This document shows positions 27,325 through 59,562 of a DNA stretch of 64,000 nucleotides, in pieces (positions within the stretch are counted from its first letter, which is position 1; each line of letters begins with the position of its first letter). The stretch lies in assembly GCA_963805015.1 (NCBI GenBank), contig CAWDSL010000012.1, positions 1,712 to 65,711 on the forward strand, given 5' to 3'. The position numbers and the translations under genes were made by a program. The stretch comes from an uncultured bacterium. Lineage in GTDB: Bacteria > Acidobacteriota > Aminicenantia > Aminicenantales > Saccharicenantaceae. The notes below the pieces were generated by a model that ran no database searches, was not told the origin of the DNA, and saw only the letters and a list, made by a program, of their open reading frames with translations.

Positions 27325-27825
27325 CTATTTGGACTGCAGATAGTTAACGAGAAAATGCAGGATCTGCCAGCTTTGATCAGGTTGCCGCTGCCAAACGATG
27401 CCACATCTTGCAAGAGCACGAACGGGCGGCTGACTACCCTCTTGTTCCAGCTCATTGATCGTAACGAACGTGTAGGCCTTCGAGCCGACGACATCACAAT
27501 GAATGAGAGTGAATGTCATCTCGAGAACCTTCATTGCCGGCATCCCTTTTGCGAATAGCTCTTGAAGGCTATCACGGCCCCTGAGCTCGGGCATGTCGGG
27601 GTAGATCAGAACGGCATCCTTCGTGAACCAACCGGCACATTTGTCTGGCTGCAAGGTCTTGACAGTCTCGATATAGTCGGTCAAGAGGCGCGTGCAGAGT
27701 TCCTTTGCAGCAACGGCATTCATGGCCACTTCACCCTTCTGTCGGCAGCCAATGCCGAAAACAAGGAGTGATACCATGAAGACGGCGGTTAAAAAGACAG
27801 GGCGGCATCTCGACGTTCTATTCAT
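27325..27825 (-). CDS. NTF2-like (DUF4440/SnoaL-like) lipoprotein
   Basis: ORF 27325..27858. Start taken at ATG 27825, 9 nt after GGAGG. Lipobox LLVFGIGC. NTF2-like length and pattern, ending ..CGIVWQRQPDQSWQILHFLVN. Confidence 0.6.
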   Translation of the reverse strand: MNRTSRCRPVFLTAVFMVSLLVFGIGCRQKGEVAMNAVAAKELCTRLLTDYIETVKTLQPDKCAGWFTKDAVLIYPDMPELRGRDSLQELFAKGMPAMKVLEMTFTLIHCDVVGSKAYTFVTINELEQEGSQPPVRALARCGIVWQRQPDQSWQILHFLVNYLQSK

Positions 27826-27860
27826 TGGCATATCCTCCCCCCTTGGGTCCAAAATCATCC

Positions 27861-28406
27861 CTATTTCTTTATGGCCTCTTTAGGCTTGAGCTCCATGCCG
27901 AGCTGCTGCATCCATCCCATAACGTCAAATTCTTCCTTGGCGTTAGCGATCTTTCCGTCGATGACCTGGCCGATCCACATTCCGCTGGCCTCAACCTTCT
28001 TTCCGGTAGGGGGGATCCCTTGGTACTCTCCGGTATGTGTGCCTCCTGTGACAAATCGCACCATGACCTTGTCGACGTGGGCGACCATTTCTTTGATATC
28101 GTAACGCATATCGGGGAATCCGGCCCAAAGCATCTTGGAGAATCCCTCTTCCTCTTCGCGGGTAAGGCCCTTAGGATTATTCGAAGGGAAGTGCCAGCCG
28201 TAATCGGGAGCATACAGTTCTTGATAAACTCCGGTGTTCTTCTTGTTCAGTTCGTCAAAAACCTTCGTAACAAGGGCCATGTTCTGCTGCTCGATCGCCG
28301 CCTGGGCCTTATACTTTTCCAGCTCCGCCAAGGCCGTCTTGTCCTGGCAAGCGATAGTGAAACAAAACAGAACGATCAACGGAACCGCACAAAGATACTT
28401 TTTCAT
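27861..28406 (-). CDS. SnoaL-like (predicted ester cyclase family) lipoprotein, paralog 1
   Basis: ORF 27861..28421; ATG 28406 is preceded by AAGGAGG. Lipobox FCFTIAC. Family pattern GTHTGEYQGIPPTGKKVE..DGKI..EEFDVMGWMQQLGMELKP. Confidence 0.7.
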   Translation of the reverse strand: MKKYLCAVPLIVLFCFTIACQDKTALAELEKYKAQAAIEQQNMALVTKVFDELNKKNTGVYQELYAPDYGWHFPSNNPKGLTREEEEGFSKMLWAGFPDMRYDIKEMVAHVDKVMVRFVTGGTHTGEYQGIPPTGKKVEASGMWIGQVIDGKIANAKEEFDVMGWMQQLGMELKPKEAIKK

Positions 28407-28436
28407 TTTCCCCTCCTTCATAGCCCGTGCCGAATT

Positions 28437-28976
28437 CTATTTCTTTGCCGCTATCGGCTTAAGCTCCATGCCGAGCTGTTGATACAGGCCCAAGCTATCC
28501 TCAATCACATACGCCCGCTTGATTTTCCCGTTAACGACGACGAAGGAGTATAGGCCCGGCTCTATCACTTTCGTTTCAGTGGGGGGTATTCCTTCGTACG
28601 GAGCTTTATGGGTCCCTTTCTGGACAATCTTCATAACCACGTTGTTCCCTTCTGCGACAGTGTCTTCAATCGTATGCTGCCAATCGGGGAACGCCGAATA
28701 ATGAGCCTTGATGACCTCAATGAGAGTATCGACGTTCACTGGTTCAGGTAAACCCGGCGCACTGAGCGCAAAATCAGCGGCGCCTAGCTCCTTGATCATC
28801 GCGAAATCGTTCCTGTCGATGGCGGCGATTAAATTGCGGGCCACGTCCTTATTCTGGTCCTCAAGCTTTGCCTGGGCTTTGAACTTCTCCAGCTCCGCCA
28901 TTGCCGCCTTGTCCTGGCAGGCGATAGTGAAACAGAACACAAGGACCAACGGAACGACATAAAGGCATTTTTTCAT
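28437..28976 (-). CDS. SnoaL-like lipoprotein, paralog 2
   Basis: A 179-aa ORF with AAGGAGGGGG upstream. It has the same lipobox (FCFTIAC), the block GTHKAPYEGIPPTETKV and the tail QQLGMELKP. Confidence 0.7.
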   Translation of the reverse strand: MKKCLYVVPLVLVFCFTIACQDKAAMAELEKFKAQAKLEDQNKDVARNLIAAIDRNDFAMIKELGAADFALSAPGLPEPVNVDTLIEVIKAHYSAFPDWQHTIEDTVAEGNNVVMKIVQKGTHKAPYEGIPPTETKVIEPGLYSFVVVNGKIKRAYVIEDSLGLYQQLGMELKPIAAKK

Positions 28977-29007
28977 TTTCCCCCTCCTTCATAACCCGCG
29001 CTGATTT

Positions 29008-29558
29008 TTATTTCTTGAGCTCTTTCGGCCTGAGCTCCATGCCGAGCTGCTCAAGTAAGCCCATACCGTCAAACTCTTCCCACATCTCCACGACCTTTCC
29101 ATTCTTGATCCGGAAGACGAGAATTCCACTTCGGCCTTAAACTTGTTCCCAGTCGGCGGGATCCCAAGAAATTCTCCTTGGTGAATTCCGCTCATCACAT
29201 ATCGGCTTGTGACCATGTCTCCATCAGCGCATGGTTCGACCAAGTGGATCGTAAAATCGGAGACACCTCGATGGATCATCTTTATATGCTCTACAAATTC
29301 TGCCAGGGAACGCATAGCAATAGTTGTCGACGGTGTATATTCAATGAAATTCGGAGAGACCAATTCTTCGACAACGGCAAGGTCCGCTGCGCCTATAGCT
29401 GCCATGACACGCCCTACGAGTGCCTTATTCTGCTGCTCGATCGCCGTTTGGGCCCTGTACTCCTCCAGCTCGACGATCGCCGCCTTGTCCCGACAAGCAA
29501 TCGAGTAACATAAGCACAACACGAGCCCCGACAAAGCCAGAAGGGAACCTTTTCTCAT
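29008..29558 (-). CDS. SnoaL-like lipoprotein, paralog 3, frame break near 29125
   Basis: ORF 28989..29558 (lipobox CYSIAC; GIHQGEFLGIPPTGNKFKAEV). The conserved tail ILVFRIKNGKVVEMWEEFDGMGLLEQLGMELRPKELKK* is in another frame, with its stop at 29010..29008. An upstream ATG at 29571 with a better RBS is out of frame across an A-run. Confidence 0.65.
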
Positions 29559-36024: not shown

Positions 36025-37080
36025 TCACCGAGCCGGTCTCCACAGCGGAGAATAATCGACACCTGGAACATTTGTGAGCCGCTTGACATGACTCCCGTCC
36101 GCATTCATGACGTGGATCTCCTCATCGCCTCCATGCGGCGAGTCGCCTGAACCCGGAACGACGCGCACAAAAGCGATACGTTGCCCGTCCGGTGCCCATT
36201 GCGGGACGAAATCCCAGGCTGGATCGCGGGTGAGGTTCGCCTCTCCGGTCCCGTCTGCATATAGCACATAGACCTCTCGCGGTCGTCCCCGTTCGAACAT
36301 GATCTTCCTGCCGTCGGGCGACCAAGTGGGGCCACGGTCCTCATCGGCGTTGTGCGTGAGGTTCGTCTGTCCCGAGCCGTCAGAATTCATGACATAGATC
36401 TCGAAATTCCCGTCCCGTTGGCTCTCGAAAGCTATTTTGCGGCCATCGGGAGACCACACCGGCAAGCCATCGAAGGCGCTGTTATAAGTGGTCCTGGTCT
36501 GCTCGGCCCCGTCGGATCTCATGATCCATATTTCGAGCCTGCCGGAAATCTCTTGTTCTCCCTCCCAACTTCTCACGAACGCGATCCTCTTGCCGTCCGG
36601 AGCCCAACGCGGTGTGGCATCGATGCCGGGATCATTCGTGAGCCGGCGTTTATTCCCTCCGTCCGCATTCATGACATAGAGATCGATGTTGCCGTTTCCG
36701 GAATCCATATAGGCGATCTTGGTTCCGTCCGGCGACCACACGGGGGAGAAGCTCTCGGACGGACCTGCGGTGAGTCTTGCTTTCCGGGTTCCATCCGCGT
36801 TCATGACCACGATCCCTCGGATTCCCGCCAGAACGTTTACGAACGCGATCCTCTTTCCGTCGGGGGACCAGGCCAGGTCGCCGTCCCATTCCTTATTATC
36901 GGTGAGGGCAAGCTGGCCGCTGCCGTCTGAATTCATGATATAGATCTCTGTGTCGCCGTCTCGCCTGCTGACAAAAGCGAGCTGAGGCTCGCCCGTATTC
37001 TTGCAGGAGATCTCTCCGCAGAGGCAGGCCGCGACGAGGATGACGAGCAGACGCACTCGAGTTCTCAGGCACCAGGTCAT
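36025..37080 (-). CDS. TolB-like beta-propeller lipoprotein (PD40/WD40-like repeats)
   Basis: ORF 36025..37191. Start taken at ATG 37080 ([26 protein letters not shown]). Contains six or more DGxxIAFxSxRDGxxEIYVMNxDGSG-type repeats. Confidence 0.8.
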
Positions 37081-37222
37081 CGCCAGAAAGCCCTTTCGTT
37101 CCCGATCGGATGATAGGACGGAACATGGCTTCGCGTCAATCATCCGAGCTTGTTCTCGCCTTGACACCCTTTCGAGACGAGATTCCATCATTCAACCCGA
37201 GGGCGGGATCGAGACAGGAGGG

Positions 37223-37870
37223 CTACTGAACGGGCGGGAGCTCGGCCAGGACGGCGTCGAGCCGCTCGGCCGAGCCGTAGCTCTGGGTCCAGCGGGCCCG
37301 GAGCTTGGCGGGATATGAGGGATCGCGGGCAAGCCTGGCCCTATAGAGCCCGGCCGCGTACGCCTTCTCGGCCTCCTCGAGGGTCGGCCACCACGAGAAG
37401 TAGAGGAAGGCGACGTTGAGGTTCATCGTCTCGTCGGCCGGCTTGAGGCCGAGCGCCTCCCGGAAGTACGACTTGGCCCGGTCCTGGAAGGTCATCAGGG
37501 GGTAATTGTAGAGGAGATAGGCCAGCCCCGTTTCGTAGTGGACGGCGGCGTCGATGGGATTGGCGGCGATGGCCCGTCCGTAGCGGGCCACGGCCTTGTC
37601 GCAGAAGCCGTCGCGCTCCTCGTCGCGGCCCGCGTCGTTCGAGACCCGGGCCATCTCCAGGTAGAGGCGGGCCATCTCGGCCTCGAAAACGGCGCGGGGC
37701 GAAGCGGCGGACGCCCGCGAAAGGCGGGACTCGAGGGCCGGGAAAGCGCTCTCGACGCTGCGGGCCCGGGCGCGCTCCGCCCGGTAGGCGGCCAGATGCC
37801 GGAAGCCGATGAAGTCGCGGACGGCCGGGACGAAGAGGACGGCGGCCAGGATCAGGGCTCCGATCAGCCT
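37223..37870 (-). CDS. TM + TPR-like domain; separate gene or C-terminal part of the upstream Wzy-like protein
   Basis: The frame of ORF 37223..37675 stays open upstream to TAA 37873..37871 (..LIGALILAAVLFVPAVRDFIGFRHLAAYRAERARARS..EAEMARLYLEMARV..). There is no ATG/GTG near its 5' end, so it is probably joined to the 37871..39471 gene by a frame break. Confidence 0.5.
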   Translation of the reverse strand, partial: RLIGALILAAVLFVPAVRDFIGFRHLAAYRAERARARSVESAFPALESRLSRASAASPRAVFEAEMARLYLEMARVSNDAGRDEERDGFCDKAVARYGRAIAANPIDAAVHYETGLAYLLYNYPLMTFQDRAKSYFREALGLKPADETMNLNVAFLYFSWWPTLEEAEKAYAAGLYRARLARDPSYPAKLRARWTQSYGSAERLDAVLAELPPVQ

Positions 37871-37910
37871 TTAATGGGGACAAATACTCCGGGCGCAGGT
37901 CCCCGATCTT
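37871..37910. repeat. short GGGGACA/GTCCCC element copy inside coding sequence
   Basis: The sequence ttaatggggacaaatactccgggcgcaggtccccgatctt lies within a locally AT-richer patch that encodes KNKNKIGDLRPEYLSPLK on the minus strand. Confidence 0.55.
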
Positions 37911-39471
37911 GTTCTTATTCTTGGGCTTACCCAGTACGACCACCCCCAGCATCGCCAGCGTCATGAAATAGACCGCGTTGGCCGTGATCTGGAGGTTGAA
38001 GTCGGTGAAGCCGTGGACGAGGAGGGCCGCGACGGCGAGACCGGCGCCCAGGCCGATGCCCTTGGCGAACGAGCTCCGGCGCCGCCGCCACATCGCGCCC
38101 AGCCAGAAGGCCAGCCCGAGGCCGGCGGCGATGATCGCTCCACCGGCGACGACACCGTTCTCGGCCGCGTATTCGAGATAGTCGTTGTGGGCGAAGGACA
38201 GCCGCATCCGGTCGTCGACCTTCTCGTACATCGGATAGGCGTTGACGTAGGTCCCCTTGCCCGTCCCGGCCAGCGGGAAATCGCCGATGAGCTCGAGGGT
38301 GTTCTCGTAGAAGGTCCGGCGGGCGTCGGCCGTGACGTCGACCTCGGAGAACCGGGAGATGACGGGACCGACGCCGAGCCACACCGCCGCGGCCACGACC
38401 ACGGTGGCCACGACGCGGACGATCCGCCCGAAGCGGCGCCGGCCGCCCTGCCCCGCCCCCTCGCCGCGCCCGCTCCCCTCCCCGCCCCGTCCTCGTCCGA
38501 GAACTCCCGCCACGAGGACGCCGCCGCGGCGGCCAACACGGTCGTCAGGACGAGCACCAGGATGCCGGACCTCGACTTGGAGAAGACGAGGCCGAGCGCG
38601 ATGAACACCGGGACGAGCCCGAGGAGAAGCGTCCACTGCAGGCTCTCCTGGCCGAACCAGACGATCTTCCGCCGCAGGGACATGCCCCTTCTCCATGGCG
38701 AAGTAGCGGGCCTTGACCAGCAGGAAGCCCAGGCTCAGGGGGAAGGCCATCTCCAGGAAGCCGGCCAGATGGTTGCGGTTGACGAAGGTGCCCGTGACCG
38801 AGCCCACCCCGTAGCGCTTCGGGCGCCCCAGCAGATGCTCGTGGCCGCTGAAGACCTCCACCATGCCGAACAGGGACTGGAAGAGGGCCGAGGCCAGGAT
38901 GACCACGACCAGGATCTCGACCTGTCGACGGCTGCGGACCGTCCTCAGGACCAGGTAGCCGAAGAGGGCGTAGCAGGAGAGGAGGATGAGCTCCGAGACC
39001 GTCGCGCTCGGCGTGAGCGACAGCGTCAGCCAGGGCGAGGGCGCCGCGATGCCGTCCCGGACGAGGCCCGCGTATATGGCGAAGGCCCGGGGCGAGAGGA
39101 CCTGGACGAACCCGGCCGGAAGGGGGACGATCTGGAGGACGGAGAACGCGGCGAAAGCCCCGATCAAGTACTTTGACGAAGCGAGGCAGCCGACCTGGGA
39201 CGAGACGCCCGCCGTTAGCGCCGTCGCCGTCAAGAGGGCCGCGACCCGGGCTCCAGGCCTCATGTGATGCCCCGCCCGCCCGGTCGGCCCGGTTCTCCAA
39301 GCCTCTGCCGGGGCGCCGCTTGGCGAAGGCCCGCCCGCCGATATGGAGCAGGAAGAGGCCCACGGTCGCGGCCTCGAAGGCGAAGATCGCCCACTCCTCG
39401 ACCGCGCCGATGGGCAGGGGCAGAAAGACCAGGACCGCGCACAGGCCCCAAAAGACGATTTGGTCGATCAC
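37871..39471 (-). CDS. O-antigen ligase / Wzy_C-like polytopic membrane protein, about 3-4 frame breaks
   Basis: The N-terminus is in ORF 38545..39471 (MIDQIVFWGLCAVLVFLPLPIG..). The body is spread over ORFs 37341..39263 and 37961..38683 (..FVNRNHLAGFLEMAFPL.., ..SKSRSGILVL.., ..SFAHNDYLEYAAENGVV..HGFTDFNLQ), which are typical Wzy_C/O-antigen-ligase blocks. Frame switches fall near 39280, 38685, 38460 and 37870. Confidence 0.65.
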
Positions 39472-39638: not shown

Positions 39639-40166
39639 TCAACGGATCGGGGAGGATTCCTGGCCGGGGACGAGCAGGAAATACAGGCCGACGCCGATCG
39701 CGGCGATCACCAGGACCCGGCCCGCGACGCTGCTGAAGAAGCCCACCTTCTTCAAGGACGCCTCGCCCGACTCCTGGCCCGCCGCGCCGGGCGCGAGGGA
39801 CATCGACAGCTTGCCCAGCTCGCCTTCCTTCACCAGGAGCGTGTAGTCCAGGTTGAAATCGCCCGCCACGGAGGTCACGCCCAGAAGGTAGCGGCCTTCG
39901 GGCACGGCGGCGACGGTATACATCCCGTTGGCGTCCGTCGGCCCCGAGAGGAGCTCCTTCTGGTCGGCGACGTTCCGGAGCTTGACCACCGCCCCCGCGA
40001 CCGGCGTCTTCATGTCCTTGGCGAAGATGAAACCGGAGAGCGTCCCGCTTCCCGGCGCGGCCGCGCCCGCTGCCGCGTACGGCCCCGCGGGGAAGACGAG
40101 CAGCGCGAACGCCGCCAGCACCGCGCAAACCAAGCCCTTGGATCTTCCGATGGATTTGACGCTCAT
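39639..40166 (-). CDS. signal peptide + CarboxypepD_reg-like beta-sandwich + C-terminal TM anchor protein, paralog 1 (tail ESSPIR)
   Basis: ORF 39639..40172; ATG 40166 with GGAAGGGG upstream. Core block AVVKLRNVADQKELLSGPTDANGMYTVAAVPEGRYLLGV. C-terminus FFSSVAGRVLVIAAIGVGLYFLLVPGQESSPIR*. Confidence 0.7.
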   Translation of the reverse strand: MSVKSIGRSKGLVCAVLAAFALLVFPAGPYAAAGAAAPGSGTLSGFIFAKDMKTPVAGAVVKLRNVADQKELLSGPTDANGMYTVAAVPEGRYLLGVTSVAGDFNLDYTLLVKEGELGKLSMSLAPGAAGQESGEASLKKVGFFSSVAGRVLVIAAIGVGLYFLLVPGQESSPIR

Positions 40167-40261
40167 GGGCACGCCCCTTCCGGAGGAACCTCACGGTTCC
40201 CGAAATAGCGCCCCACTTCTCTAGGATATCGATGCCGGCTCTCGGCCGGCCCATCCGCGTG

Positions 40262-40777
40262 TCAGTCGATGATCGGAGAGGTCTCGTTCTCGAGGAGAAC
40301 GATGGCGAACAGGGTGGCCTCGACGACGCTCAACAGGGTCACGATGCCCGCCGGGGACTTGAAGAACTCGCCGATACCCGATTTCTTCTTCTCGGCGAAC
40401 CCCGACTGGACCATGACCGGCGTTTCGCCGGCCTTCATGGCCACGGACAGCTTGGCCAGCGCGTCCGACTTGATCATGATGCTGTAGTGGAAGTTGTAGG
40501 CTCCGTTGGGGGCCTGAACGCCCATGACGTAGCGCCCTTCCTCGATCCCCGGTATCCGGTACAACCCTTCGGGATCGGTCGGCTCGCTCCAGTACTCCTT
40601 GAGCGTCTCCACGTTGCGGAGCTTGACCACGGCGTTGCGGACCGGCGTCCGCATGTCCTCGTTGTAGATGTGCCCGGCCAGCGCCCCGTTGCCCTTGGGC
40701 GCGGCGGCGATCTGCGCCACCGGGAGGGTCATCAGAACGAAGGCCACCGTCAGCAATACCACCAGGATCTTTTTCAT
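40262..40777 (-). CDS. same family, paralog 2 (tail ETSPIID)
   Basis: A 171-aa ORF with GGGGAGG upstream. Core block AVVKLRNVETLKEYWSEPTDPEGLYRIPGIEEGRYVMGV. C-terminus FFKSPAGIVTLLSVVEATLFAIVLLENETSPIID*. Confidence 0.7.
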   Translation of the reverse strand: MKKILVVLLTVAFVLMTLPVAQIAAAPKGNGALAGHIYNEDMRTPVRNAVVKLRNVETLKEYWSEPTDPEGLYRIPGIEEGRYVMGVQAPNGAYNFHYSIMIKSDALAKLSVAMKAGETPVMVQSGFAEKKKSGIGEFFKSPAGIVTLLSVVEATLFAIVLLENETSPIID

Positions 40778-40910
40778 TTAGTGACCTCCCCACCAAACGC
40801 CATATAATAATGGGCTTACGGAGATGGGCTTGTCAAGAAGAATTTTAGCCCCTGGCCCCTTCCCAGGGGAAAATCGCGGAAAAACCGCCTTTTTTCGGAA
40901 AAATCGCCCC

Positions 40911-41462
40911 TTACCTGATGGGCGAAGCTTCTTCTTCCTTCTTCGTCAGCTCGTAGATGCCGAAACCGGCCCCGGCCACGGCGACGACGATGACCAGGAT
41001 GCCCCCGGGCGTCGAGAAAAAGCTCTTCCCGCCGTTCCCCCCGCTGCTGCCCTTGCCCTCGAGCATGCCCCCGGGCAGCATCTCGACGGAGAGCTTGGCG
41101 GTCTCGCCGGCCTTGATGTAGACGCCGTAGTTGAGGTTGAAGTCCCCCGCGGCCGTGGTCACGCCCAGCGTATACCAGCCTTCCTCGATCATCAGGATCT
41201 TATAGTTCCCCTTGGCGTCGGTCGGCTGGCTCGTGTATTCCTTCTGGTTGTTGAGGTTGCGGATCTTGACGAGGGCGTTGGCGACGCGCGCTCTCATCCC
41301 CTCCGAAAAGACCGACCCCTGCAGCGTCCCCTGCCGGGCAAAGGATTGCTGCGGCTCCGCCGGACTTTGCGCGGCTCCGGTGATCGGCGTAACGAGCAGG
41401 AGGAATGAGGCGATCAGGCCGTAAGCCAGAAACCTAGACCTGGATGCGGTTACACTCACCAT
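40911..41462 (-). CDS. same family, paralog 3 (tail EASPIR)
   Basis: ORF 40911..41507; ATG 41462 is preceded by AAGGAG. Core block ALVKIRNLNNQKEYTSQPTDAKGNYKILMIEEGWYTLGV. C-terminus FFSTPGGILVIVVAVAGAGFGIYELTKKEEEASPIR*. Confidence 0.7.
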   Translation of the reverse strand: MVSVTASRSRFLAYGLIASFLLLVTPITGAAQSPAEPQQSFARQGTLQGSVFSEGMRARVANALVKIRNLNNQKEYTSQPTDAKGNYKILMIEEGWYTLGVTTAAGDFNLNYGVYIKAGETAKLSVEMLPGGMLEGKGSSGGNGGKSFFSTPGGILVIVVAVAGAGFGIYELTKKEEEASPIR

Positions 41463-41515
41463 TGGGGACTCCTTGACCTCATTATACAACATATATTGGT
41501 CGGTCAAGCATTATT

Positions 41516-42364
41516 TTAATTGATTTTTAGGATCGTCGTCGGCCCCGAACCGGGTCTCCGCCCGCCCTTCGCCGGGCGCTTCGGCATCCCCAGGAGACGC
41601 TGGGTCCAGGTCTTTTGCCGCAGGGGATTCTCGGGCTCCCCCCAGTCGGGCAGGGCCTTGTTGTCGAGGATGGCCCGGGGGATCTCGGTGACCATGGCCC
41701 GGGCCTTGCTCTCCCCGACGATCTTGGCCGCGGCCTCGACGGCCCGGCTGAGGCCCGGCGGCCGGCCCATCGTCCCGTGGGCGTCGCTGGCGATGACGTG
41801 GACGAGGTTGTGCGACATGAACAGCCCGGCCGTCGACCGGACCTCTCTGCCCAGCTCTCCCGTCAGGCTGGCCGCGGTCACCTGGGCCGCGCAGCCCATC
41901 GAGACGAATTCGTACAGAAGCTCGGGCCTGGCCGCGAATCCCCTGTTCCGCTCCGGGTGGCTGATGACGGGCACGAAGCCCTTGCTCATGAGCTGGGCCA
42001 GCATGTTGGCCGCGCCGACCGGCACGCCCTCCGAGGCGAACTCGAGGAAGACGTAGCTCGTCTGGTCGACCGTGAAGCGGTACTTCTCGACGGCCCGGAC
42101 GACCTCCGCGTGGACGAAGACCTCGGCGCCGTAGTGGAACTCGAGGCCGATCTCCGCCTCGCGCATCTCGCGGCCGAAATCGACCATCCGCTGCCTCAGG
42201 ATCCCCAGGTCGTCCTGGTGGCGGGTCATCCGGAAGACGTGGGGCGTCAGGCAGATGGCCTTGGTCCCGTCCTTCTCGGCCAGGCGGCACATGGCCCGGG
42301 CCTGGTAGAGGTCGTCGGGCCCGTCGTCCCAGTCCCACAGCAGGTGCGTGTGCAGGTCTATCAT
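41516..42364 (-). CDS. PHP-family protein-tyrosine phosphatase (CpsB/YwqE-like)
   Basis: An intact 282-aa ORF. It has MIDLHTHLLWDWDDG, ..ICLTPHV.., ..ISHPERN.. and ..IASDAHG.., the metal-binding His/Asp pattern of CpsB-type phosphatases. Confidence 0.8.
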   Translation of the reverse strand: MIDLHTHLLWDWDDGPDDLYQARAMCRLAEKDGTKAICLTPHVFRMTRHQDDLGILRQRMVDFGREMREAEIGLEFHYGAEVFVHAEVVRAVEKYRFTVDQTSYVFLEFASEGVPVGAANMLAQLMSKGFVPVISHPERNRGFAARPELLYEFVSMGCAAQVTAASLTGELGREVRSTAGLFMSHNLVHVIASDAHGTMGRPPGLSRAVEAAAKIVGESKARAMVTEIPRAILDNKALPDWGEPENPLRQKTWTQRLLGMPKRPAKGGRRPGSGPTTILKIN

Positions 42365-42367: not shown

Positions 42368-44662
42368 CTAGGACTTATGGTACCCGTGGTAATAGTCTTT
42401 GTAATAATACGCCCCGTGCCGCGGCACGCTGACGTTGTTGATGATGACGCCGATCGTCCGGACCTTGAGCAGGTCCAGCTTCTCGCGGGCCTTCTTCAGC
42501 GCCTCGCGCGAGGTCGTGTCGCCGTGGACGACGAGCACCAGGCCGTCGACCTTGGCCCCCAGCACCAGCGCGTCGCTGATCTCGAGCATGGGCGGCAGGT
42601 CGAACAGGACGTGGTCGCACTCCTCGCTCATCATCCGGATGAAGCGGGTCATCTTGTCCGAGCCCAGGAGCTCGGCCGGGTTGGGCGGCACGGGCCCGGC
42701 GTTGATCAGGAATAGGTTGGGGATCACCGTCGACTTGACGACCGTCTTGAGCTCGATCGAGTCGGTCAGGTAGGTGGTCAGCCCGAAGGTGTTCTTGACC
42801 TTGAACAGCCGGTGCTGGCGGGGCCGCCTCAGGTCGGCGTCGACGATGAGCACGGTCTTCCCGGACTGGGCCAGGGTGATGGCCAGGTTGGCCACCGTCA
42901 CCGTCTTCCCCTCCCCGGGCAGGGCCGAGGTCACGGCCACGGTCTTGACGGGGCTATCGGCCGAGGACAGCAGGAGCGCCGTGCGCAGGGACCGGTAGCT
43001 CTCGGCCAGCCGCGAGTTCGGGAAGTAGTGCGGCACGAGCTCGATGCTGCCCGGGCGCTCGGCCGGCTCGATCTCCGCGACGAAGGGCGCGGCCGCGACG
43101 GCCGGCGCCGCTTGGTCCGTTCCCGCCGCACCCGCCGTATCCGCCCCGGTCGACGTCCCCGCCTCGAGGCGGGCCGGCTCCTTGCCGCTCTTGAGCCTCC
43201 GCCCGTAGCTATAGTTCTTGTCGGCGCCCGCCAGGCTGAACTTGGGCACGACGCCCAGGGTCGGCAGCCCCGCGTAGCGCTCGACGTCCTCGCTCGTCTT
43301 GACGCTGTTGTCGAGGAAGTCGAACAGGAACGCCAGCCCCACTCCCCCGCCGAGACCGAGCAGGAGCGCCAGGATGAGGTTCCTCTTCTTGTTCGGGCTC
43401 GAGGGCCGCACCGGCACCCGGGCCCGGTCGACGACCCGGATATTGGACGTTCTCAAGCCCTTGAGCCGGGCCTCGACCCCCGTCTCGCTCTCGCGCCGCA
43501 GCAGCGAGTCGAGCAGGGTCTTCTTGTTCTGGATCTCGACCTTGAGCCCGTTATACAGCACGGCGCTCGAGTTCATCTTGAAGGCCGCGGTCTTCTGCTC
43601 GTTGAACTCGGACTCGAGCGACCGTTCCCGGTTGAGGGCCGTCTGGAATTCCGAGTAGGCCCCCTTGACCAGGTTCTGGGTCTCGTCGTCGAGCGACTTG
43701 CGGGCCGACTCCATCTCCACCTTCATCCGCTGCAGCTCGGGGTAATCGGGCTGGAAGCGCTCCTCCATCTTCTGGGTCTCGCGCTTGAGCCGGACGTAAT
43801 CCTCGCGCAGCCGCTGGATGAGCGGATTGTTGATGGCCTCGGGCACGTAATCCGCGCTGACGTTCTTGAGGCCGTTCCAGGTGGCCTGCTTCTGCGAGCG
43901 CTCGATCTGGGCCTCGGTCAGGGCCTTGTTGAGCTGGCTCAGGCGGTCGATGACCGTGGTCTCGTTGTCGCTCAGGGCGACGATGTTGGCCTCGGCCTCG
44001 AAGCCCTGGAGCTGGTTCTCCTTCTGCTCGATCTCGGTCTGCAGCCCCTTGATCTGCTCCGAGAGGAAGGTGGTCGCCTGCTCGGTCGCGGCGTACTTCA
44101 TGTTGATGTTGAGGTCGATGAAGGCGGCCGCGAGATCGTTGACGCAGTCGGCGGCCAGCTTGGGGTCCCGGGCCTCGAAGGCGACGTCGACGAGCCGGGT
44201 CAGCCGCACGGGCCTGACCGAGAGCCGCCCCAGGAAGCCGTCGATGAGCCCCTCGCGGAAGACGTGGTCGGTCGGGTCGACGGGCTTCGTCCGTTTCTCC
44301 GGCCGGCCCACGAACTCGGGGTTCTCATAGAGCTTGAGCCTCTCGATGACCGTGTCGGCCAGGCCCCGCCCGCTCAGCAGCCGGTACTGGGTCTGGTAGA
44401 AATCGTCCCGCATCGACTCGATCTGCAGGACCTGCTCGAACGACAGGATATTGGGCTCCTTCTCGATGAGGAGCTGGGATTTGGCGGTGTAGACGGGCTT
44501 CTGGATGAAGGTCCAGAACGCCCCGAGGATGAAAACGCCCAGGGTCACCGCGATGACGGTGCTCTTGCGGCGCAGGAGCCTGTCCCAGTAATCGCGAAGG
44601 TCGATCTGCTGAGGCTCCGCGACCTCGTAATCCGCCAGCTGTATCTCGTTCTGATTCTTCAT
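42368..44662 (-). CDS. wzc: polysaccharide co-polymerase / BY-kinase (Wzc/GumC-like)
   Basis: ORF 42368..44719. Start taken at ATG 44662 (MKNQNEIQL). Has a Wzz-type N-terminal TM, a long coiled periplasmic domain and a second TM. Walker A is SALPGEGKT, and the C-terminal Tyr cluster is GAYYYKDYYHGY. Confidence 0.85.
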   Translation of the reverse strand: MKNQNEIQLADYEVAEPQQIDLRDYWDRLLRRKSTVIAVTLGVFILGAFWTFIQKPVYTAKSQLLIEKEPNILSFEQVLQIESMRDDFYQTQYRLLSGRGLADTVIERLKLYENPEFVGRPEKRTKPVDPTDHVFREGLIDGFLGRLSVRPVRLTRLVDVAFEARDPKLAADCVNDLAAAFIDLNINMKYAATEQATTFLSEQIKGLQTEIEQKENQLQGFEAEANIVALSDNETTVIDRLSQLNKALTEAQIERSQKQATWNGLKNVSADYVPEAINNPLIQRLREDYVRLKRETQKMEERFQPDYPELQRMKVEMESARKSLDDETQNLVKGAYSEFQTALNRERSLESEFNEQKTAAFKMNSSAVLYNGLKVEIQNKKTLLDSLLRRESETGVEARLKGLRTSNIRVVDRARVPVRPSSPNKKRNLILALLLGLGGGVGLAFLFDFLDNSVKTSEDVERYAGLPTLGVVPKFSLAGADKNYSYGRRLKSGKEPARLEAGTSTGADTAGAAGTDQAAPAVAAAPFVAEIEPAERPGSIELVPHYFPNSRLAESYRSLRTALLLSSADSPVKTVAVTSALPGEGKTVTVANLAITLAQSGKTVLIVDADLRRPRQHRLFKVKNTFGLTTYLTDSIELKTVVKSTVIPNLFLINAGPVPPNPAELLGSDKMTRFIRMMSEECDHVLFDLPPMLEISDALVLGAKVDGLVLVVHGDTTSREALKKAREKLDLLKVRTIGVIINNVSVPRHGAYYYKDYYHGYHKS

Positions 44663-44672
44663 CTTATTCCCT

Positions 44673-44691
44673 GGGGACATGCAATGTCCCC
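44673..44691. repeat. perfect palindrome GGGGACAT-gca-ATGTCCCC between wza and wzc
   Basis: 8-bp arms and a 3-nt loop, with the same core as the interspersed family. It lies in the 50-nt gap between the wza stop (44713) and the wzc ATG (44662). Confidence 0.8.
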
Positions 44692-44712
44692 CATCTTCTC
44701 TTCTCTTTCTCT

Positions 44713-45602
44713 TTACCAAAAACTCTCCGGCACATACACCACATCGCCCTCTTGCAGCACGATGTCCTTCTTCCGGCCCTTGATGATGTCCTTCAGGTTG
44801 ACCTTGATCTTCTGCTCTTTGCCGGCCTTATCCTTCCGGGTGATGGTGATGGCGCTCTCTTTGGCTCCCTCGGCCAGGCCGCCCGCGTCGGCGATGGCCT
44901 GGAAGAGCGTGATCCCCTCGGACAGCTTGGCCTTGACCGCCCCGGGCCTCGTGACCCGGCCCATGACGAACACCCGGATCTCCCGGTCGACCGGCACGTT
45001 GATGACGTCGTTCGGCTCGACGGGGACGTTTAGCGTTTGGTTGCCGTTGACGATCAGGTCCTTGAGGTCGATGGAGAGGGTCGAGGTCTTCCCGTCCGGC
45101 CCCTCGCGCAGGATGAAGACCTCGTTGCCGGCCGTCTCGCTGAAGCCGCCGGCCATGGAGATGATCTGGAGCAGGTTCTTGCGGCCGACGAGCTCGTAGC
45201 TCCCGGCGTTCTCGACCGCCCCGATGACGGCCACCTGCTGGTTCTTGTACTCCTTGATGAAGATCGTCACCTGGGGGTTCTTGACGTACTTGGCCTGGAG
45301 GAGGCCCGTGAGCTTCTGGACGACGCCTTCCTGGGTCAGGCCCTCGACGACGACGCGCCCGAGGAGCGGCAGGGTGATCGACCCGTCCTCGGACACCCGG
45401 ACGACCTGGCTGAGCTCTTCCACCTGGAAGACCTTGAGCTCGAGCAGATCCCCCGGGCCGATCCGGTAGGCCCTGACGAACGCGTCCTTGGCATCCTGCG
45501 GGGTGATCGCCGGCGGGGTCTTGGCCTGGGGCACGGCCTGGGAGCCGCAAGGCCGGCAACCGCCAGCACGGCGGACATGGCGAACAGGGCAATCTTCCTC
45601 AT
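44713..45602 (-). CDS. wza: polysaccharide export protein (Wza-like; Poly_export + SLBB), frame break near 45545
   Basis: The body is in ORF 44713..45705 (PGDLLELKVFQVEELSQ.., SLBB-like repeats). The signal peptide MRKIALFAMSAVLAVAG is in the frame of ORF 45336..45647, starting at ATG 45602 with GGAGAGG upstream. Confidence 0.8.
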
Positions 45603-45634
45603 CGTCCTCTCCAAGTAAATCGGCGAAATCGCTT

Positions 45635-45687
45635 GAAATCGGGACATGTAACAATTCTCCTGAATCGGTACGTGTCCCCTGATTTCG
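45635..45687. repeat. interspersed inverted-repeat element copy (arms abutting)
   Basis: Arms are gaaatcgggacatgtaacaattctcc (45635..45660) and tgaatcggtacgtgtcccctgatttcg (45661..45687). Confidence 0.65.
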
Positions 45688-45707
45688 ACCGGTATCCCAA
45701 TCCAAGG

Positions 45708-46959
45708 CTAGAACTCGTACGTCAAGTTTACCCCAAAGAACGTCCTCTTGTCATCTTCGCCCGCCAGGTTGGAGTCCCTGGTCCACCAACTGGCGATAAA
45801 ACCGAGGGCCACGGTCTTCCTGATCCGGAAATAGACGCCTCCCGAGTGGATCGTGAATTCGTCGAGCCGTTTCTCGTCCGGCCCGCCGCCTCCGACTACG
45901 GGATAGCGGTTCCTGCCCTTCGAAAAATCGTAGTCGAAGCGCAGGAATCTCACCGGATAGAGGGACGCCCCGACGCCCGGCCGGCTCTCGATATAGTAGG
46001 GATTCCCGTACCAGAGCGAGAAGCGCACGTCCCTGACGTACGATCCCCGGATGACGAACGGCTTCGCCAGCCGGACGGAGAGCTGGGAGTCGCCGACGAG
46101 CCCCTTGTAGTCCGGCCCGTCCACGGCCCGGACGTCGTATTGCTTGTAGCCGAGGCGGACGCGCCCCCGCACCCGCCTGCCCAGCCGCGAGAATTCGATC
46201 CCGGCGTAGGCCGCCCCGCTCCGGGCGTCGCCGACGGCCGCCTGGCTCGCGAACTCGAAATCGTACTGCCCGTACTCGAAGTCCAGGAAAAAGCGCCTCT
46301 GCGTCGAGGCCTGGTAGAAAAGCGACAGATTGGCGTAGCTCTCCCGGCGGTTCATCCGTTCCCTGACATCGAAGTCGTCACCATAAACGACGCTCGCATA
46401 ATCGTACTTGACCGTCCGCCCGCCCAGGGAGAAGGAGGTCCGATGGGCCAGGTTGACCAGCATGGAACCGCCGTAGGCCGTCTCCTTCCGTCTCGGCCGG
46501 ATGTCGATCTCCGTGTTCCACCGCTCGCGGGCGTCCGAGTAGGCCCCCTCGAGCGCTGAAGAAAACGTTCTTGAGGCTCAGCTGGGCCGCCCCGGCCGAG
46601 TAGTAGTTCCAGGTCCGTTCTCTCTCGGTCTTGCTGTACCAGACGTATTGGGGCGAACCGTAGGCCGTCAGGACGAACTTCCGGTGGATGGGCAGGTAGA
46701 TCGTGGCCGCCGGTCCGGCCGTGACCGTGAAGTCCTTGACCGGCTCGGCCGGCGAATAGAAGACGTTCGAATCGACGCCCGCGTTCGATGATGACGAGCG
46801 AGGGCTGGATCTTGAACGGCCCGAAATGCCACGGGGCATCCGCCATCCGGCGCTGGAGCTCGAGGCCCTTCCAGGTTTCGGCGTTTGCCGGCAGGACGGC
46901 GGCCGCCGCCGTTATGAGCAGGAGGAGACGGGAGAGCGCGCCGTCCGGTCGGACCTCAT
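45708..46959 (-). CDS. EPS-associated outer-membrane beta-barrel protein (EpsL/bbp2-like), about 3 frame breaks
   Basis: ATG 46959 forms an ATGA overlap with the capD stop. The signal peptide LLLLITAAAAAVLPANA and beta-strand-rich body are spread over ORFs 46352..46846, 46378..46839 and 45708..46463, ending ..FFGVNLTYEF*. Frame switches fall near 46925, 46785 and 46550 (a C5 run). Confidence 0.65.
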
Positions 46960-54576: not shown

Positions 54577-54578
54577 GG

Positions 54579-56418: not shown

Positions 56419-56420
56419 TG

Positions 56421-58211: not shown

Positions 58212-58221
58212 CTAAACCTCT

Positions 58222-59372: not shown

Positions 59373-59562
59373 ACCCAGGAAAGGCTCTTACTCCGTGATT
59401 AACTGCAATAGCGCCCTATTTAAGGGTGTCCTATAATGCTGCCGGGCCATCGAGCTAAAAGTCCCCCTCTCATTTGTTTTTGCACCTGAAGAGAGTGTAT
59501 TATAGCCCATCTACTGTGCCATATTGCAAACGTCTCCGTCCACCAGCTAATCTTTTTCGCAA

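What the first reader, a model, noticed from the sequence alone, without database searches (positions are those of the whole stretch)
39639..41462. Tandem triplet of anchored beta-sandwich proteins with an invariant C-terminal E-x-S-P-I tail, embedded in the polysaccharide export core
Three adjacent minus-strand genes encode clear paralogs with an identical four-part layout.
1. A Sec signal peptide.
2. A ~90-aa domain resembling carboxypeptidase-regulatory-like beta-sandwiches. The shared block is A(V/L)VK(L/I)RN(V/L)..(K/Q)E....PTD..G.Y......EG.Y..GV....G.(F/Y)N..Y.
3. A linker ending FF(S/K)(S/T)(P/V)(A/G)G.
4. A single C-terminal TM helix followed by the extreme tails ESSPIR, ETSPIID and EASPIR.

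The order TM helix then conserved motif at the very end is the reverse of LPXTG, PEP-CTERM and GlyGly-CTERM type sorting signals, which run motif, TM, basic tail. That predicts type I proteins with a tiny conserved cytoplasmic tail.

The triplet sits exactly between the PHP tyrosine phosphatase / Wzc BY-kinase / Wza genes and the Wzy-like gene. I know of no described component at this position. The conserved Ser-Pro tail could be a docking or modification site for the kinase/phosphatase pair, or an unrecognised sorting tag.
Basis: partly seen in the sequence, partly recalled or inferred. Interest (0 to 1): 0.72.

Follow-up and report, generated by a model that had tools for sequence, protein, structure and literature searches.

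The report
Conserved anchored proteins in polysaccharide-export locus
Three neighbouring genes encode an undescribed family of small beta-sandwich proteins with an invariant serine at the very end; in the uncultured bacterial group Aminicenantes the family always sits inside the gene cluster that builds and exports surface polysaccharide, so it is probably an unrecognised part of that machinery.

Summary
Three minus-strand paralogs (about 42% identical) share one layout: signal peptide, transthyretin/CarboxypepD_reg-like beta-sandwich, FFxxPxG motif, hydrophobic C-terminal helix, and tails ESSPIR, ETSPIID and EASPIR.

The window comes from a Candidatus Aminicenantes genome. In all 33 related loci the genes lie in one fixed order: beta-barrel porin, OPX (Wza), Wzc, CpsB phosphatase, family members (1-4 copies), Wzy_C enzyme.

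More distant members have tails such as EEKSPSKK or EEASPFKRK. They stay in Wzc/Wza/Wzy_C clusters, with one exception beside a Wzm/Wzt transporter.

Across the family (38% mean identity) only seven columns are invariant. One is the tail Ser; another is the Gly of FFxxPxG.

The neighbouring Wzy_C protein models as a WaaL-like 12-helix core plus a periplasmic TPR domain.

Pfam, NCBIfam, PDB and the literature searches name no function for the family.

My best guess (0.4) is a membrane-tethered periplasmic accessory subunit of the Wzc/Wzy_C machine. The rivals are a dedicated glycan-acceptor protein and a private sorting tag.

Sister variants without a membrane helix keep the same Ser at the same spacing.

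The CpsB phosphatase is not an obligate partner.

The parts
39639..40172 (-). Paralog A (177-aa ORF; likely start ATG 40166). Layout: signal peptide, beta-sandwich, FFSSVAG, hydrophobic helix, tail ESSPIR. This is the 'A-type' orthogroup, last before Wzy_C.
   Evidence: A-type orthologs occupy the same position in most related loci but are absent from the closest relatives L001, L004 and L005.
40262..40777 (-). Paralog B (171 aa). FFKSPAG motif; helix with a conserved mid-helix Glu (SVVEATLFA); tail ETSPIID. This is the 'B-type' orthogroup.
   Evidence: The search found 241 homologs; the 120 listed are 66-99% identical and the named ones are Candidatus Aminicenantes.
40911..41462 (-). Paralog C (183 aa from ATG 41462; the ORF is open to 41507). 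FFSTPGG motif; Gly/Ala-rich helix AVAGAGFGIY; tail EEEASPIR. This is the 'C-type' orthogroup, first after cpsB.
   Evidence: AAGGAG ribosome-binding site before ATG 41462.
39642..39659 (-). Tail of A: E-S-S-P-I-R (residues 172-177).
40265..40285 (-). Tail of B: E-T-S-P-I-I-D (residues 165-171).
40914..40931 (-). Tail of C: E-A-S-P-I-R.
39669..39740 (-). A: FFSSVAG motif (39720-39740), one Arg codon, then the hydrophobic helix VLVIAAIGVGLYFLLV (39669-39716).
40292..40366 (-). B: FFKSPAG motif (40346-40366), then the hydrophobic helix IVTLLSVVEATLFAIVLL (40292-40345).
40953..41021 (-). C: FFSTPGG motif (41001-41021), then the hydrophobic helix ILVIVVAVAGAGFGIY (40953-41000).
37226..39471 (-). 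Wzy_C ('O-antigen ligase family') gene fused to a C-terminal TPR-like domain. In this window it is broken by at least two uncompensated frameshifts. Intact orthologs are about 710-795 aa.
   Evidence: The AF2 model of ortholog P0303 is WaaL-like (7tpg) plus TPR.
41516..42364 (-). CpsB/CapC-type PHP tyrosine phosphatase with a conserved C-terminal extension.
42368..44719 (-). Wzc-type PCP-2a with a BY-kinase domain and a C-terminal Tyr cluster (YYYKDYYHGYHKS).
44713..45705 (-). Short OPX (Poly_export plus two SLBB domains) ending ...PESFW. The N-terminus of the ORF is uncertain.
45708..46463 (-). BBP2_2 (EpsL-like) outer-membrane beta-barrel. Orthologs are about 410-447 aa, so the 5' part is probably out of frame here.

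Best explanation
**Proposal.** The three genes encode lineage-specific (Aminicenantes) accessory subunits of a Wzx/Wzy-type polysaccharide assembly and export machine. That machine consists of a class-3 OPX, a beta-barrel porin, Wzc, and a WaaL-like Wzy_C enzyme with a periplasmic TPR domain.

**How each protein is built and placed.**
- It is exported by an N-terminal Sec signal.
- It carries a transthyretin/CarboxypepD_reg-like beta-sandwich in the periplasm.
- It is held at the inner membrane by its C-terminal module: FFxxPxG, a small-residue-rich hydrophobic helix, an acidic stretch, and Ser-Pro-x-[KR].

**Inferred mechanism.**
- The helix packs against the transmembrane part of a polytopic partner. 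The most likely partner is the Wzy_C/TPR enzyme, possibly inside or beside the Wzc ring.
- The sandwich contacts the nascent polymer or the TPR domain.
- This is analogous to BcsB, which is anchored by a single C-terminal helix to cellulose synthase BcsA.
- The A, B and C orthogroups act as non-redundant partners, possibly as a hetero-oligomer.
- The invariant C-terminal Ser is a contact or modification site essential for this role.

**Shown versus inferred.**
- Shown: family, fold, layout, conservation, synteny and taxonomic range.
- Inferred: topology, physical partners, polymer binding and the role of the Ser.
For: **Synteny in the window's lineage.**
- All 33 loci (29 GTDB species representatives, L001-L003 and the window) show cpsB, then 1-4 family genes, then Wzy_C. 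Wherever the flank allows, barrel-Wza-Wzc lies upstream.
- The three orthogroups keep their order C-B-A and their own helix signatures.

**Synteny in distant members.**
- Members at 27-51% identity are still Aminicenantes where a source names them.
- They sit at the same place (L034-L036) or elsewhere inside Wzc/Wza/CpsB/Wzy_C/TPR clusters (L037, L039, L041-L051, L055).
- Variants without the hydrophobic helix occupy the same slot (L058-L060 and the P0423 contig).

**Conservation.**
- Only 7 invariant columns remain at 38% mean identity. They include the Gly of FFxxPxG and the tail Ser. FF and the tail Pro are kept in at least 90% of sequences.
- Tail codons vary synonymously.

**The helix looks like an interaction surface.**
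- It is rich in Ala/Gly/Ser and only marginally hydrophobic.
- B-type members carry a nearly invariant mid-helix Glu.
- These are features of a helix that packs against a partner rather than of a passive anchor (inference).

**The partner enzyme.**
- The Wzy_C protein models as 12 helices like WaaL (7tpg_B, E 4.5e-4), plus a 13th helix, plus a TPR domain that is placed in the periplasm by homology.
- The TPR part is a separate gene next to Wzy_C in other lineages.

**Divergence rate.** The family and Wzy_C diverge at similar rates (52-70% and 58-68% identity), faster than Wzc (75-83%).
Against: - There is no direct evidence of any physical contact. Complex modelling could not be done with the tools available.
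- One paralog (L033 = L040) lies beside Wzm/Wzt and a cytidylyltransferase, with no Wzc or Wzy_C within 10 kb.
- In the most distant subgroup the gene is not adjacent to Wzy_C.
- The A-type copy is missing from the closest relatives (L001, L004, L005), so not every paralog is essential.
- The accessory-subunit idea does not explain why one Ser is invariant, or why helix-less variants keep it.
- The Foldseek and PDB matches are generic sandwiches and say nothing about ligand binding.
Confidence: 0.4

Rival explanations
1. **Dedicated glycan acceptor or anchor.** The neighbouring WaaL-like Wzy_C/TPR protein is not the repeat-unit polymerase. It is a ligase or O-oligosaccharyltransferase. Its periplasmic TPR domain binds the beta-sandwich proteins, and it transfers undecaprenyl-diphosphate-linked glycan to them, most likely to the invariant C-terminal Ser. 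This parallels TfpO/PilO, which glycosylates the C-terminal Ser of pilin and is encoded just downstream of pilA. The family would then be protein anchors or carriers for the polysaccharide.
For: - The family gene lies immediately upstream of Wzy_C in the window lineage, in group 1 and in the helix-less variants.
- The best structural match of Wzy_C is the ligase WaaL, and it carries or neighbours a periplasmic TPR domain. TPR is typically a protein-binding module.
- Wzy_C stays 58-68% identical across species whose loci carry different initiating transferases, Bac_transf versus WecA-like. From general knowledge, this is unlike serotype-specific Wzy polymerases.
- The Ser is invariant and more conserved than the Pro.
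- The Ser is kept at the same spacing in variants that must be entirely periplasmic.
- The helix flanks (Lys-rich before, acidic after) do not favour stop-transfer (inference).
- The outlier paralog lies next to a Wzm/Wzt glycan exporter, which could also supply a ligase.
Against: - With a cleaved signal peptide and a spanning C-terminal helix, the Ser would be cytoplasmic and out of reach.
- The locus has a complete OPX/porin/Wzc export route for free polymer and no other Wzy candidate in the window, so Wzy_C may simply be the polymerase.
- WaaL is the only solved Wzy_C-family structure that matched, so the fold match cannot separate a ligase from a polymerase.
- The strongly conserved sandwich surface suggests more than a passive carrier.
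Confidence: 0.22
2. **Private C-terminal sorting signal.** FFxxPxG, the hydrophobic helix and the charged tail together form a tripartite signal of the PEP-CTERM/LPXTG kind. An unidentified membrane enzyme cleaves near the motif and transfers the sandwich to the cell surface or to the polysaccharide.
For: - The module has a motif, a helix and a short tail ending in Lys/Arg at the extreme C-terminus.
- It occurs in EPS loci whose OPX, PCP, kinase and barrel score best, though below the family cut-offs, against the XrtA/PEP-CTERM-associated and EpsE/F/G/L families.
- FF and Gly are as conserved as the tail Ser.
Against: - No NCBIfam sorting-signal model matches.
- No exosortase, sortase, rhombosortase or CPBP gene appears in the Pfam lists of any of the neighbourhoods examined.
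- The module was found only on this one family. No other ORF in about 560 kb of related loci carries it.
- The tail is acidic with a specific Ser-Pro, not a simple basic cluster.
- Helix-less variants cannot use such a signal.
Confidence: 0.1
3. **Phospho-switch tail.** The tail is cytoplasmic. Its Ser, in an S-P-x-[KR] context, is phosphorylated and dephosphorylated, or is docked by the Wzc kinase domain or the CpsB phosphatase, coupling the periplasmic sandwich to the kinase cycle.
For: - The predicted type I topology puts the tail in the cytoplasm.
- The Ser is invariant and followed by Pro and a basic residue.
- In the window lineage the genes directly follow wzc-cpsB.
Against: - Wzc is a tyrosine autokinase with its own Tyr cluster.
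- CpsB is absent from L037, L049, L058 and the P0423 contig, which keep the family.
- No Ser/Thr kinase is conserved in the neighbourhood.
- The Ser is retained in variants that lack a membrane-spanning segment.
Confidence: 0.1

Closest known systems
CarboxypepD_reg / transthyretin-like (prealbumin-like) beta-sandwich domains (Pfam PF13620, PF13715). Examples: the N-terminal extension of SusC-like TonB receptors, NOMO and EMC7.
   Same: - Fold and weak sequence similarity: best Pfam hit at E 4e-7 to 6e-5.
- PDB profile hits to a TonB-receptor N-domain (9gbc) and to NOMO2.
- Foldseek hits to CnaB and transthyretin.
   Different: - Scores are below the Pfam gathering cut-off.
- The domain is joined to a family-specific C-terminal module (FFxxPxG, helix, Ser-Pro tail).
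- The family is confined to polysaccharide loci of one bacterial class.
BcsB, the periplasmic subunit of bacterial cellulose synthase (functional analogy only).
   Same: - A signal peptide, periplasmic carbohydrate-binding-type sandwich domains, and a single C-terminal membrane helix.
- The BcsB helix packs on the polytopic glycan-handling enzyme encoded next to it (established knowledge of BcsA-BcsB).
- The same predicted layout and gene adjacency are seen here.
   Different: - No sequence homology (no BcsB Pfam hit).
- Much smaller, with one sandwich.
- The partner here is a Wzy_C/WaaL-like enzyme in a Wzx/Wzy pathway, not a processive synthase.
- No contact has been shown.
TfpO/PilO with pilin, and PglL-type O-oligosaccharyltransferases (Wzy_C family).
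   Same: - An acceptor-like gene lies immediately upstream of a Wzy_C-family gene.
- A conserved Ser lies within the last few residues, flanked by Ala/Pro. This resemblance is recalled from the literature on pilin Ser148 and PglL sequons, so it is a lead and not a test.
   Different: - Not pilins.
- The predicted topology puts the Ser on the cytoplasmic side.
- The locus has a full OPX/Wzc export route.
- There are no glycosylation data.
PEP-CTERM/exosortase systems and other C-terminal sorting signals (LPXTG, GlyGly-CTERM, PGF-CTERM).
   Same: - A motif, a hydrophobic helix and a short charged tail at the extreme C-terminus.
- An association with EPS loci that contain EpsE/F/G/L-like genes.
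   Different: - No known signature motif or HMM match.
- No processing enzyme nearby.
- An acidic tail with an invariant Ser-Pro after the helix.
- Restricted to one protein family.
Class-3 OPX / Wzp porin / PCP secretion systems of Myxococcus xanthus (PMC9601211, PMC9603273, PMC12819527).
   Same: The surrounding locus has the same parts:
- a short OPX ending in an aromatic pair (SFW here; the FF of WzaB docks on the porin);
- an adjacent beta-barrel;
- a PCP with BY-kinase;
- a PHP phosphatase.
   Different: Those systems, as described, have no anchored beta-sandwich component and no Wzy_C-TPR fusion in the export core.
GfcA-D / YmcA-D accessory proteins of group 4 capsule loci (recalled from the literature).
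   Same: Lineage-specific small envelope proteins encoded with wza-wzb-wzc homologues and needed for capsule assembly without being enzymes.
   Different: No sequence or fold relationship was tested or expected. Domain types and order differ.

Membership tests
Pfam CarboxypepD_reg (PF13620) | HMM score at or above the gathering cut-off (32.3 bits). | tested here: not met
   Scores are 30.7, 23.8 and 26.4 bits for A, B and C. It is still the best-scoring family for each.
Pfam CarboxypepD_reg (PF13620) | Seven- to eight-stranded transthyretin/prealbumin-like beta-sandwich fold. | tested here: met
   The AF2 model of B has strands over residues 30-128 at pLDDT 86-91. Foldseek top hits are CnaB2, HIU hydrolase and transthyretin (E about 1e-4). 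Profile hits fall on a TonB-receptor N-domain and on NOMO2.
C-terminal sorting signals (PEP-CTERM, LPXTG, GlyGly-CTERM, PGF-CTERM and similar) | A known signature motif or HMM match for the C-terminal domain. | tested here: not met
   NCBIfam at E<=1 gives no sorting-signal model. The motif before the helix is FFxxPxG.
C-terminal sorting signals (PEP-CTERM, LPXTG, GlyGly-CTERM, PGF-CTERM and similar) | A hydrophobic helix followed by a short basic cluster at the extreme C-terminus. | tested here: inconclusive
   The helix is present. The tail is acidic, then Ser-Pro, then 0-3 Lys/Arg. B-type tails (IID) have no basic residue.
C-terminal sorting signals (PEP-CTERM, LPXTG, GlyGly-CTERM, PGF-CTERM and similar) | A cognate processing enzyme (exosortase, sortase, rhombosortase or CPBP) encoded nearby or co-occurring in the genome. 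| tested here: not met
   None appears in the window genes scanned or in the Pfam lists of the related neighbourhoods. Genome-wide co-occurrence could not be tested.
C-terminal sorting signals (PEP-CTERM, LPXTG, GlyGly-CTERM, PGF-CTERM and similar) | The signal is carried by several unrelated proteins of the same genome. | tested here: inconclusive
   No other ORF in the window or in about 560 kb of related loci has the module. Whole genomes were not available.
O-oligosaccharyltransferase and acceptor pair (TfpO/PilO-pilin, PglL type) | A Wzy_C-family enzyme encoded next to the acceptor gene. | tested here: met
   Wzy_C lies immediately downstream in all loci of the window lineage, in group 1 and in the helix-less variants.
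O-oligosaccharyltransferase and acceptor pair (TfpO/PilO-pilin, PglL type) | The acceptor Ser/Thr is exposed on the periplasmic side. | tested here: inconclusive
   Hydropathy and AF2 suggest a spanning helix, which would put the Ser in the cytoplasm. However, the helix is marginal, and helix-less periplasmic variants keep the Ser.
O-oligosaccharyltransferase and acceptor pair (TfpO/PilO-pilin, PglL type) | Glycan covalently attached to the Ser. | not testable with these tools
   Requires mass spectrometry of the native protein.
BcsB-like accessory subunit (functional class, not a homology family) | A signal peptide, periplasmic sandwich domain(s) and a single C-terminal membrane helix. | tested here: met
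   Met by prediction only.
BcsB-like accessory subunit (functional class, not a homology family) | Sequence homology to BcsB. | tested here: not met
   No BcsB family among the Pfam hits at E<=1.
BcsB-like accessory subunit (functional class, not a homology family) | Physical association of the C-terminal helix with the polytopic enzyme. | not testable with these tools
   The structure tool returns no coordinates and accepts no complexes.
Class-3 OPX Wzx/Wzy-dependent export locus (context) | A short OPX, an adjacent beta-barrel porin, and a PCP-2a with BY-kinase and Tyr cluster. | tested here: met
   - OPX: Poly_export plus SLBB, 330-aa ORF ending SFW.
- Barrel: BBP2_2.
- PCP: Wzz, GNVR and a P-loop kinase, ending YYYKDYYHGYHKS.

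Class-3 OPX Wzx/Wzy-dependent export locus (context) | A Wzx flippase in the locus. | tested here: not met
   None among the window genes scanned or in the unassigned stretches. The glycan gene block runs off the window end, so it may lie beyond.

The most novel reading that the evidence does not exclude
The invariant C-terminal Ser is the site at which the adjacent WaaL-like Wzy_C/TPR enzyme ligates undecaprenyl-diphosphate-linked polysaccharide. On this reading, these small beta-sandwich proteins are dedicated protein anchors or primers of the exported polymer: a protein-linked capsule or EPS in a diderm. Their FFxxPxG, helix and Ser module would be a new kind of membrane-proximal glycosylation tag, read by a TPR-bearing ligase.
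Probability: 0.18. Interest if true: 0.8.

Novelty: new variant of a known kind. Interest (0 to 1): 0.52.

Why it matters
**A possible missing part.** Wzx/Wzy-dependent polysaccharide export is thought to have a well-known parts list: Wzx, Wzy, PCP/BY-kinase, phosphatase, OPX and, in class-3 systems, a porin. Here a whole bacterial class keeps an extra, strongly conserved component at a fixed place in the export core. Next to it is a WaaL-like enzyme that carries or neighbours a periplasmic TPR domain.
- If the family is an accessory subunit, it shows how the polymerase or ligase step can be coupled to the periplasmic conduit.
- If it is an acceptor, it would be a protein-anchored exopolysaccharide made through a dedicated ligase.

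**A testable handle.** The single invariant Ser at the C-terminus can be probed by point mutation and mass spectrometry.

**Limits.** The hosts are uncultured Aminicenantes, so tests need heterologous reconstruction or environmental proteomics. The family has not been seen outside this class.

Tried and rejected
**A DNA-level explanation for the conserved tail (RBS, terminator or attenuator).** Rejected. Tail codons vary synonymously across loci, and Rfam finds nothing in the window.

**A known family or role.** None was found in any of these searches:
- Pfam and NCBIfam;
- a PDB sequence profile;
- Foldseek against the PDB;
- literature searches for Aminicenantes plus exopolysaccharide, and for 'carboxypeptidase regulatory-like' plus Wzc.

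**The TPR domain as a clamp for the C-terminal tail (as Hop binds EEVD).**
- This is unlikely if the tail is cytoplasmic. By homology with WaaL topology, the TPR domain lies in the periplasm after a 13th helix.
- It remains possible only if the C-terminus is periplasmic.

**The Wzc C-terminus carrying the same E-x-S-P motif.** Seen once (L030), not general.

**CpsB as an obligate partner.** Rejected, because several loci lack it.

**Metagenome scans with diverse alignments.** A narrower alignment, A6, worked.

**Modelling a family/Wzy_C complex.** Not attempted. The structure tool returns no coordinates and accepts only single known sequences.

**Searching for the C-terminal module on other protein architectures.** Not run. 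The only check made was a regex over ORFs of the loci in hand.

**A second Wzy or a Wzx in the window.** Not found.

Full report
**1. What is there**

Three minus-strand ORFs lie head to tail: A at 39639-40172, B at 40262-40777, and C at 40911-41507.

The likely starts are ATG 40166 for A and ATG 41462 for C. The ATG of C follows an AAGGAG ribosome-binding site.

They are clear paralogs at about 42% pairwise identity, with 46 invariant columns. All three share one layout:
- a positively charged N-terminus and a 14-17-residue hydrophobic stretch ending in Pro, i.e. a signal peptide;
- a domain of about 95 residues;
- a Gly/Ser/Lys-rich linker;
- the motif FFxxPxG;
- a hydrophobic helix of 16-19 residues;
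- the tail ESSPIR, ETSPIID or EASPIR.

**2. Fold**

Pfam CarboxypepD_reg is the best hit for each protein, at E 4e-7 to 6e-5, but below the gathering score. NCBIfam gives only a local match to a beta-sandwich repeat of an anammox S-layer protein.

An AlphaFold2 model of B was built from 70 sequences (mean pLDDT 77). It shows:
- a confident beta-sandwich at residues 30-128 (pLDDT 86-91);
- a short helix at the FF motif;
- a long helix at residues 142-163;
- a disordered tail.

Foldseek against the PDB returns only generic transthyretin, CnaB and pilin-type sandwiches (E about 1e-4). A family profile against PDB sequences hits the N-terminal extension of a TonB-linked receptor and NOMO2. The fold assignment is sound, but it carries no functional information.

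**3. Neighbourhood in the window**

| Gene | Coordinates | Evidence |
|---|---|---|
| CpsB/PHP phosphatase | 41516-42364 | |
| Wzc (Wzz, GNVR, BY-kinase, Tyr cluster) | 42368-44719 | |
| Short OPX | 44713-45705 | |
| BBP2_2/EpsL-like barrel | 45708-46463 | |
| WbpM-like, WecA-like and sugar-modifying / GT1 genes | further upstream | |
| Wzy_C gene | 37226-39471 (downstream) | |
| TolB-like propeller | further downstream | |

- The OPX ends in SFW. This resembles the C-terminal FF of Myxococcus WzaB, which docks on its porin (PMC12819527).
- The Wzy_C gene is broken here by at least two uncompensated frameshifts relative to its closest relative.
- No Wzx and no second Wzy was found in the window.
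- Rfam finds no RNA family in the window.

**4. Who has it**

Homologs of B number 241. The 120 listed are 66-99% identical, and every named source is Candidatus Aminicenantes.

A scan of one genome per GTDB species found 29 loci. All are Aminicenantes or Aminicenantales MAGs, although some carry a placeholder 'Eubacteriales' label.

A profile search of 1.84 billion representative proteins gave 57 hits below 1e-30. About 94 of the best 150 are proteins of 300 aa or fewer, and most have the same layout. The rest are giant multi-repeat CarboxypepD_reg proteins. Named members of the distant clusters are again Aminicenantes.

**5. Synteny**

- **Window lineage.** Every locus has the same order: (WbpM), barrel, Wza, Wzc, CpsB, family x(1-4), Wzy_C. 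That is 33 of 33 loci, counting contigs cut at one side.
- **Orthogroups.** Three orthogroups keep a fixed order.
  - C-type (GFGIYELTKKE.EASPIR) comes first.
  - B-type (AVEVTLFA…EASPIID/IR) is in the middle.
  - A-type (FFSSVAGR…GVGLYFL…E.SPIR) comes last.
  - Copy number ranges from one to four, and the closest relatives of the window lack A.
- **Distant members with tails such as EEKSPSKK.** These are single-copy or two-domain proteins at the same place. Wzy_C there is about 490-505 aa and is followed by a separate protein of 211-335 aa. That protein corresponds to the C-terminal domain fused to Wzy_C in the window lineage.
- **Most distant subgroup (tails …EEEASPF[KR]).** The gene order is shuffled, but the gene is still in clusters holding barrel, Wza, Wzc, CpsB, Wzy_C and a 575-600-aa membrane-anchored TPR protein.
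- **Single exception.** One contig, fetched twice as L033 and L040, has the gene beside Wzm/Wzt, a cytidylyltransferase and GlmS.

The family is therefore a conserved, class-specific resident of polysaccharide export clusters.

**6. The C-terminal module**

Over 30 diverse members (mean identity 38%), only seven columns are invariant. They include the Gly of FFxxPxG and the tail Ser. FF and the tail Pro are kept in at least 90% of sequences.

The general tail is an acidic stretch, then x-S-P-x(1-2), then 0-3 Lys/Arg. Codons of the tail vary synonymously, so selection is on the protein.

The helix has these properties:
- it is rich in Ala, Gly and Ser;
- B-type members carry a nearly invariant mid-helix Glu;
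- it is only marginally hydrophobic (approximate Hessa sum 0 to +3 kcal/mol);
- its flanks are Lys-rich before and acidic after.

The order is thus motif, helix, charged tail, as in known sorting signals, with an extra Ser-Pro. It is not a simple reversal.

**7. An observation that no model explains well**

Sister variants share the signal peptide, the sandwich and an FF-type motif, but the 20-residue stretch between motif and Ser is polar (+6 to +18 kcal/mol). Their C-termini are Pro/Trp/Arg-rich or read PKPPKPPKS.

These variants occupy the same slot between Wzc(/CpsB) and Wzy_C. All nine aligned variants keep a Ser in the same column, about 29 residues after the motif.

If the Ser of the canonical proteins is cytoplasmic, its retention in fully exported variants is unexpected. 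This leaves the topology of the C-terminus open.

**8. The constant neighbour**

Orthologs of the Wzy_C protein are annotated 'O-antigen ligase family protein'. A model of P0303 (pLDDT 78.5, pTM 0.81) has twelve membrane helices, a 13th helix, and an all-helical repeat domain.

Its best PDB match is the ligase WaaL (7tpg_B). The C-terminal part matches TPR proteins.

By homology with WaaL, the AHND-containing loop is periplasmic and the RRRR loop is cytoplasmic. This places the TPR domain in the periplasm.

Wzy_C remains 58-68% identical across species whose loci carry different initiating transferases. Over the same species Wzc is 75-83% identical and the B-type protein 52-70%.

**9. Interpretation**

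| Reading | Confidence | Main point |
|---|---|---|
| Membrane-tethered periplasmic accessory subunit of the Wzc / Wzy_C-TPR machine (BcsB-like logic) | 0.40 | Rests on synteny, the conserved interaction-type helix and the periplasmic sandwich |
| Dedicated acceptor of the WaaL-like/TPR enzyme, glycosylated on the invariant Ser | 0.22 | Explains the Ser, the TPR domain and the helix-less variants, but conflicts with the predicted type I topology and with the complete export route for free polymer |
| Private sorting signal | 0.10 | Lacks any candidate processing enzyme and any second substrate |
| Phospho-switch or docking with the kinase/phosphatase pair | 0.10 | Weakened by loci without CpsB, by the tyrosine specificity of Wzc, and by the helix-less variants |

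**10. Novelty**

No library, solved structure or paper searched describes this component. The papers on class-3 OPX systems list OPX, porin and PCP only.

I rate it a new variant of a known kind: a known export system with an additional conserved component and an unusual C-terminal module. Interest is moderate. It is limited by the restriction to an uncultured class and by the lack of any mechanistic evidence.

Noticed in passing
window 37226-39471 (-): The Wzy_C/TPR gene is split over three reading frames, with frame changes near 39170 and 37900 relative to its closest relative L004. A further pair of frame changes around 38690-38380 relative to more distant orthologs is not seen against L004. 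Other window genes also look broken: the OPX N-terminus, the 5' part of the barrel, an FnlA-like gene at 53815-55355, and HisH/HisF-like pieces at 55.5-57 kb. This suggests long-read assembly errors rather than pseudogenes.
   Followed up: partly
window 27861-29558 (-), plus 27325-27858 (-): A tandem array of three paralogous lipoproteins (lipobox …FTIAC / SIAC). The one that was scanned (27861-28421) has a SnoaL-like polyketide-cyclase domain. A fourth, unrelated lipoprotein-like ORF lies next to them.
   Followed up: partly
window 56000-64000: G+C drops from about 65% to 36-50%. The stretch holds GT1 glycosyltransferase fragments, a methyltransferase-like ORF and a Mutator-family transposase fragment (58222-58728). 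It looks like a horizontally acquired or rearranged glycan-gene block.
   Followed up: partly
window 40778-40910 and 41463-41515: In the C-B intergenic region, a T-rich stretch after the C stop codon is followed by a promoter-like TTGACA-18-CATTAT (40836-40807) and a GGGGAGG ribosome-binding site before B. Upstream of C there is a TTGACC…TATAAT pair (15-nt spacer) and an AAGGAG site. B may therefore be transcribed on its own.
   Followed up: no
window 41516-41680 (C-terminal end of CpsB); CpsB orthologs in L002-L032: CpsB carries a conserved extension beyond the Pfam domain: …ALPDWGEPENPL(R)xKTWTQRLLGMPRR, a variable stretch, then TT(V/I)LKI(K/N). No known role.
   Followed up: no
window 44713-44730 (C-terminus of OPX): The OPX ends …VPESFW. 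This is reminiscent of the C-terminal Phe-Phe of Myxococcus WzaB, which binds the WzpB porin (PMC12819527).
   Followed up: partly
L033 / L040 10001-10630: A family paralog (209 aa; Cys-rich insert; tail EEEPEASPFKRK) lies beside an ABC2_membrane plus ABC_tran/Wzt_C exporter, a CTP_transf_like cytidylyltransferase and GlmS. No Wzc, Wza or Wzy_C is within 10 kb.
   Followed up: partly
L058 10001-10594; L059 7013-7603; L060 501-1091; P0423 contig: Sister variants without a hydrophobic helix have Pro/Trp/Arg-rich or PKPPKPPKS C-termini (for example CCSPNKRFWRWLLWWLRRHWRWK). They sit at the same locus position and keep the tail Ser column.
   Followed up: partly
L001, L004, L005 (closest relatives of the window): These loci have only the C- and B-type genes. 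B is followed directly by Wzy_C, so the A-type copy of the window is dispensable or recently lost there. L018 has four copies.
   Followed up: partly
L039 3741-5125: In one distant locus the family gene follows an ECF-type sigma-70 gene and a 44-aa ORF, and is followed by response-regulator/PAS and HD-domain genes.
   Followed up: no
window 36025-37191 (-); L035 4009-5301: A TolB-like PD40 propeller lies next to the Wzy_C/TPR gene, both in the window and in a distant lineage. In the distant lineage TonB, ExbD and ExbB genes lie alongside it.
   Followed up: no
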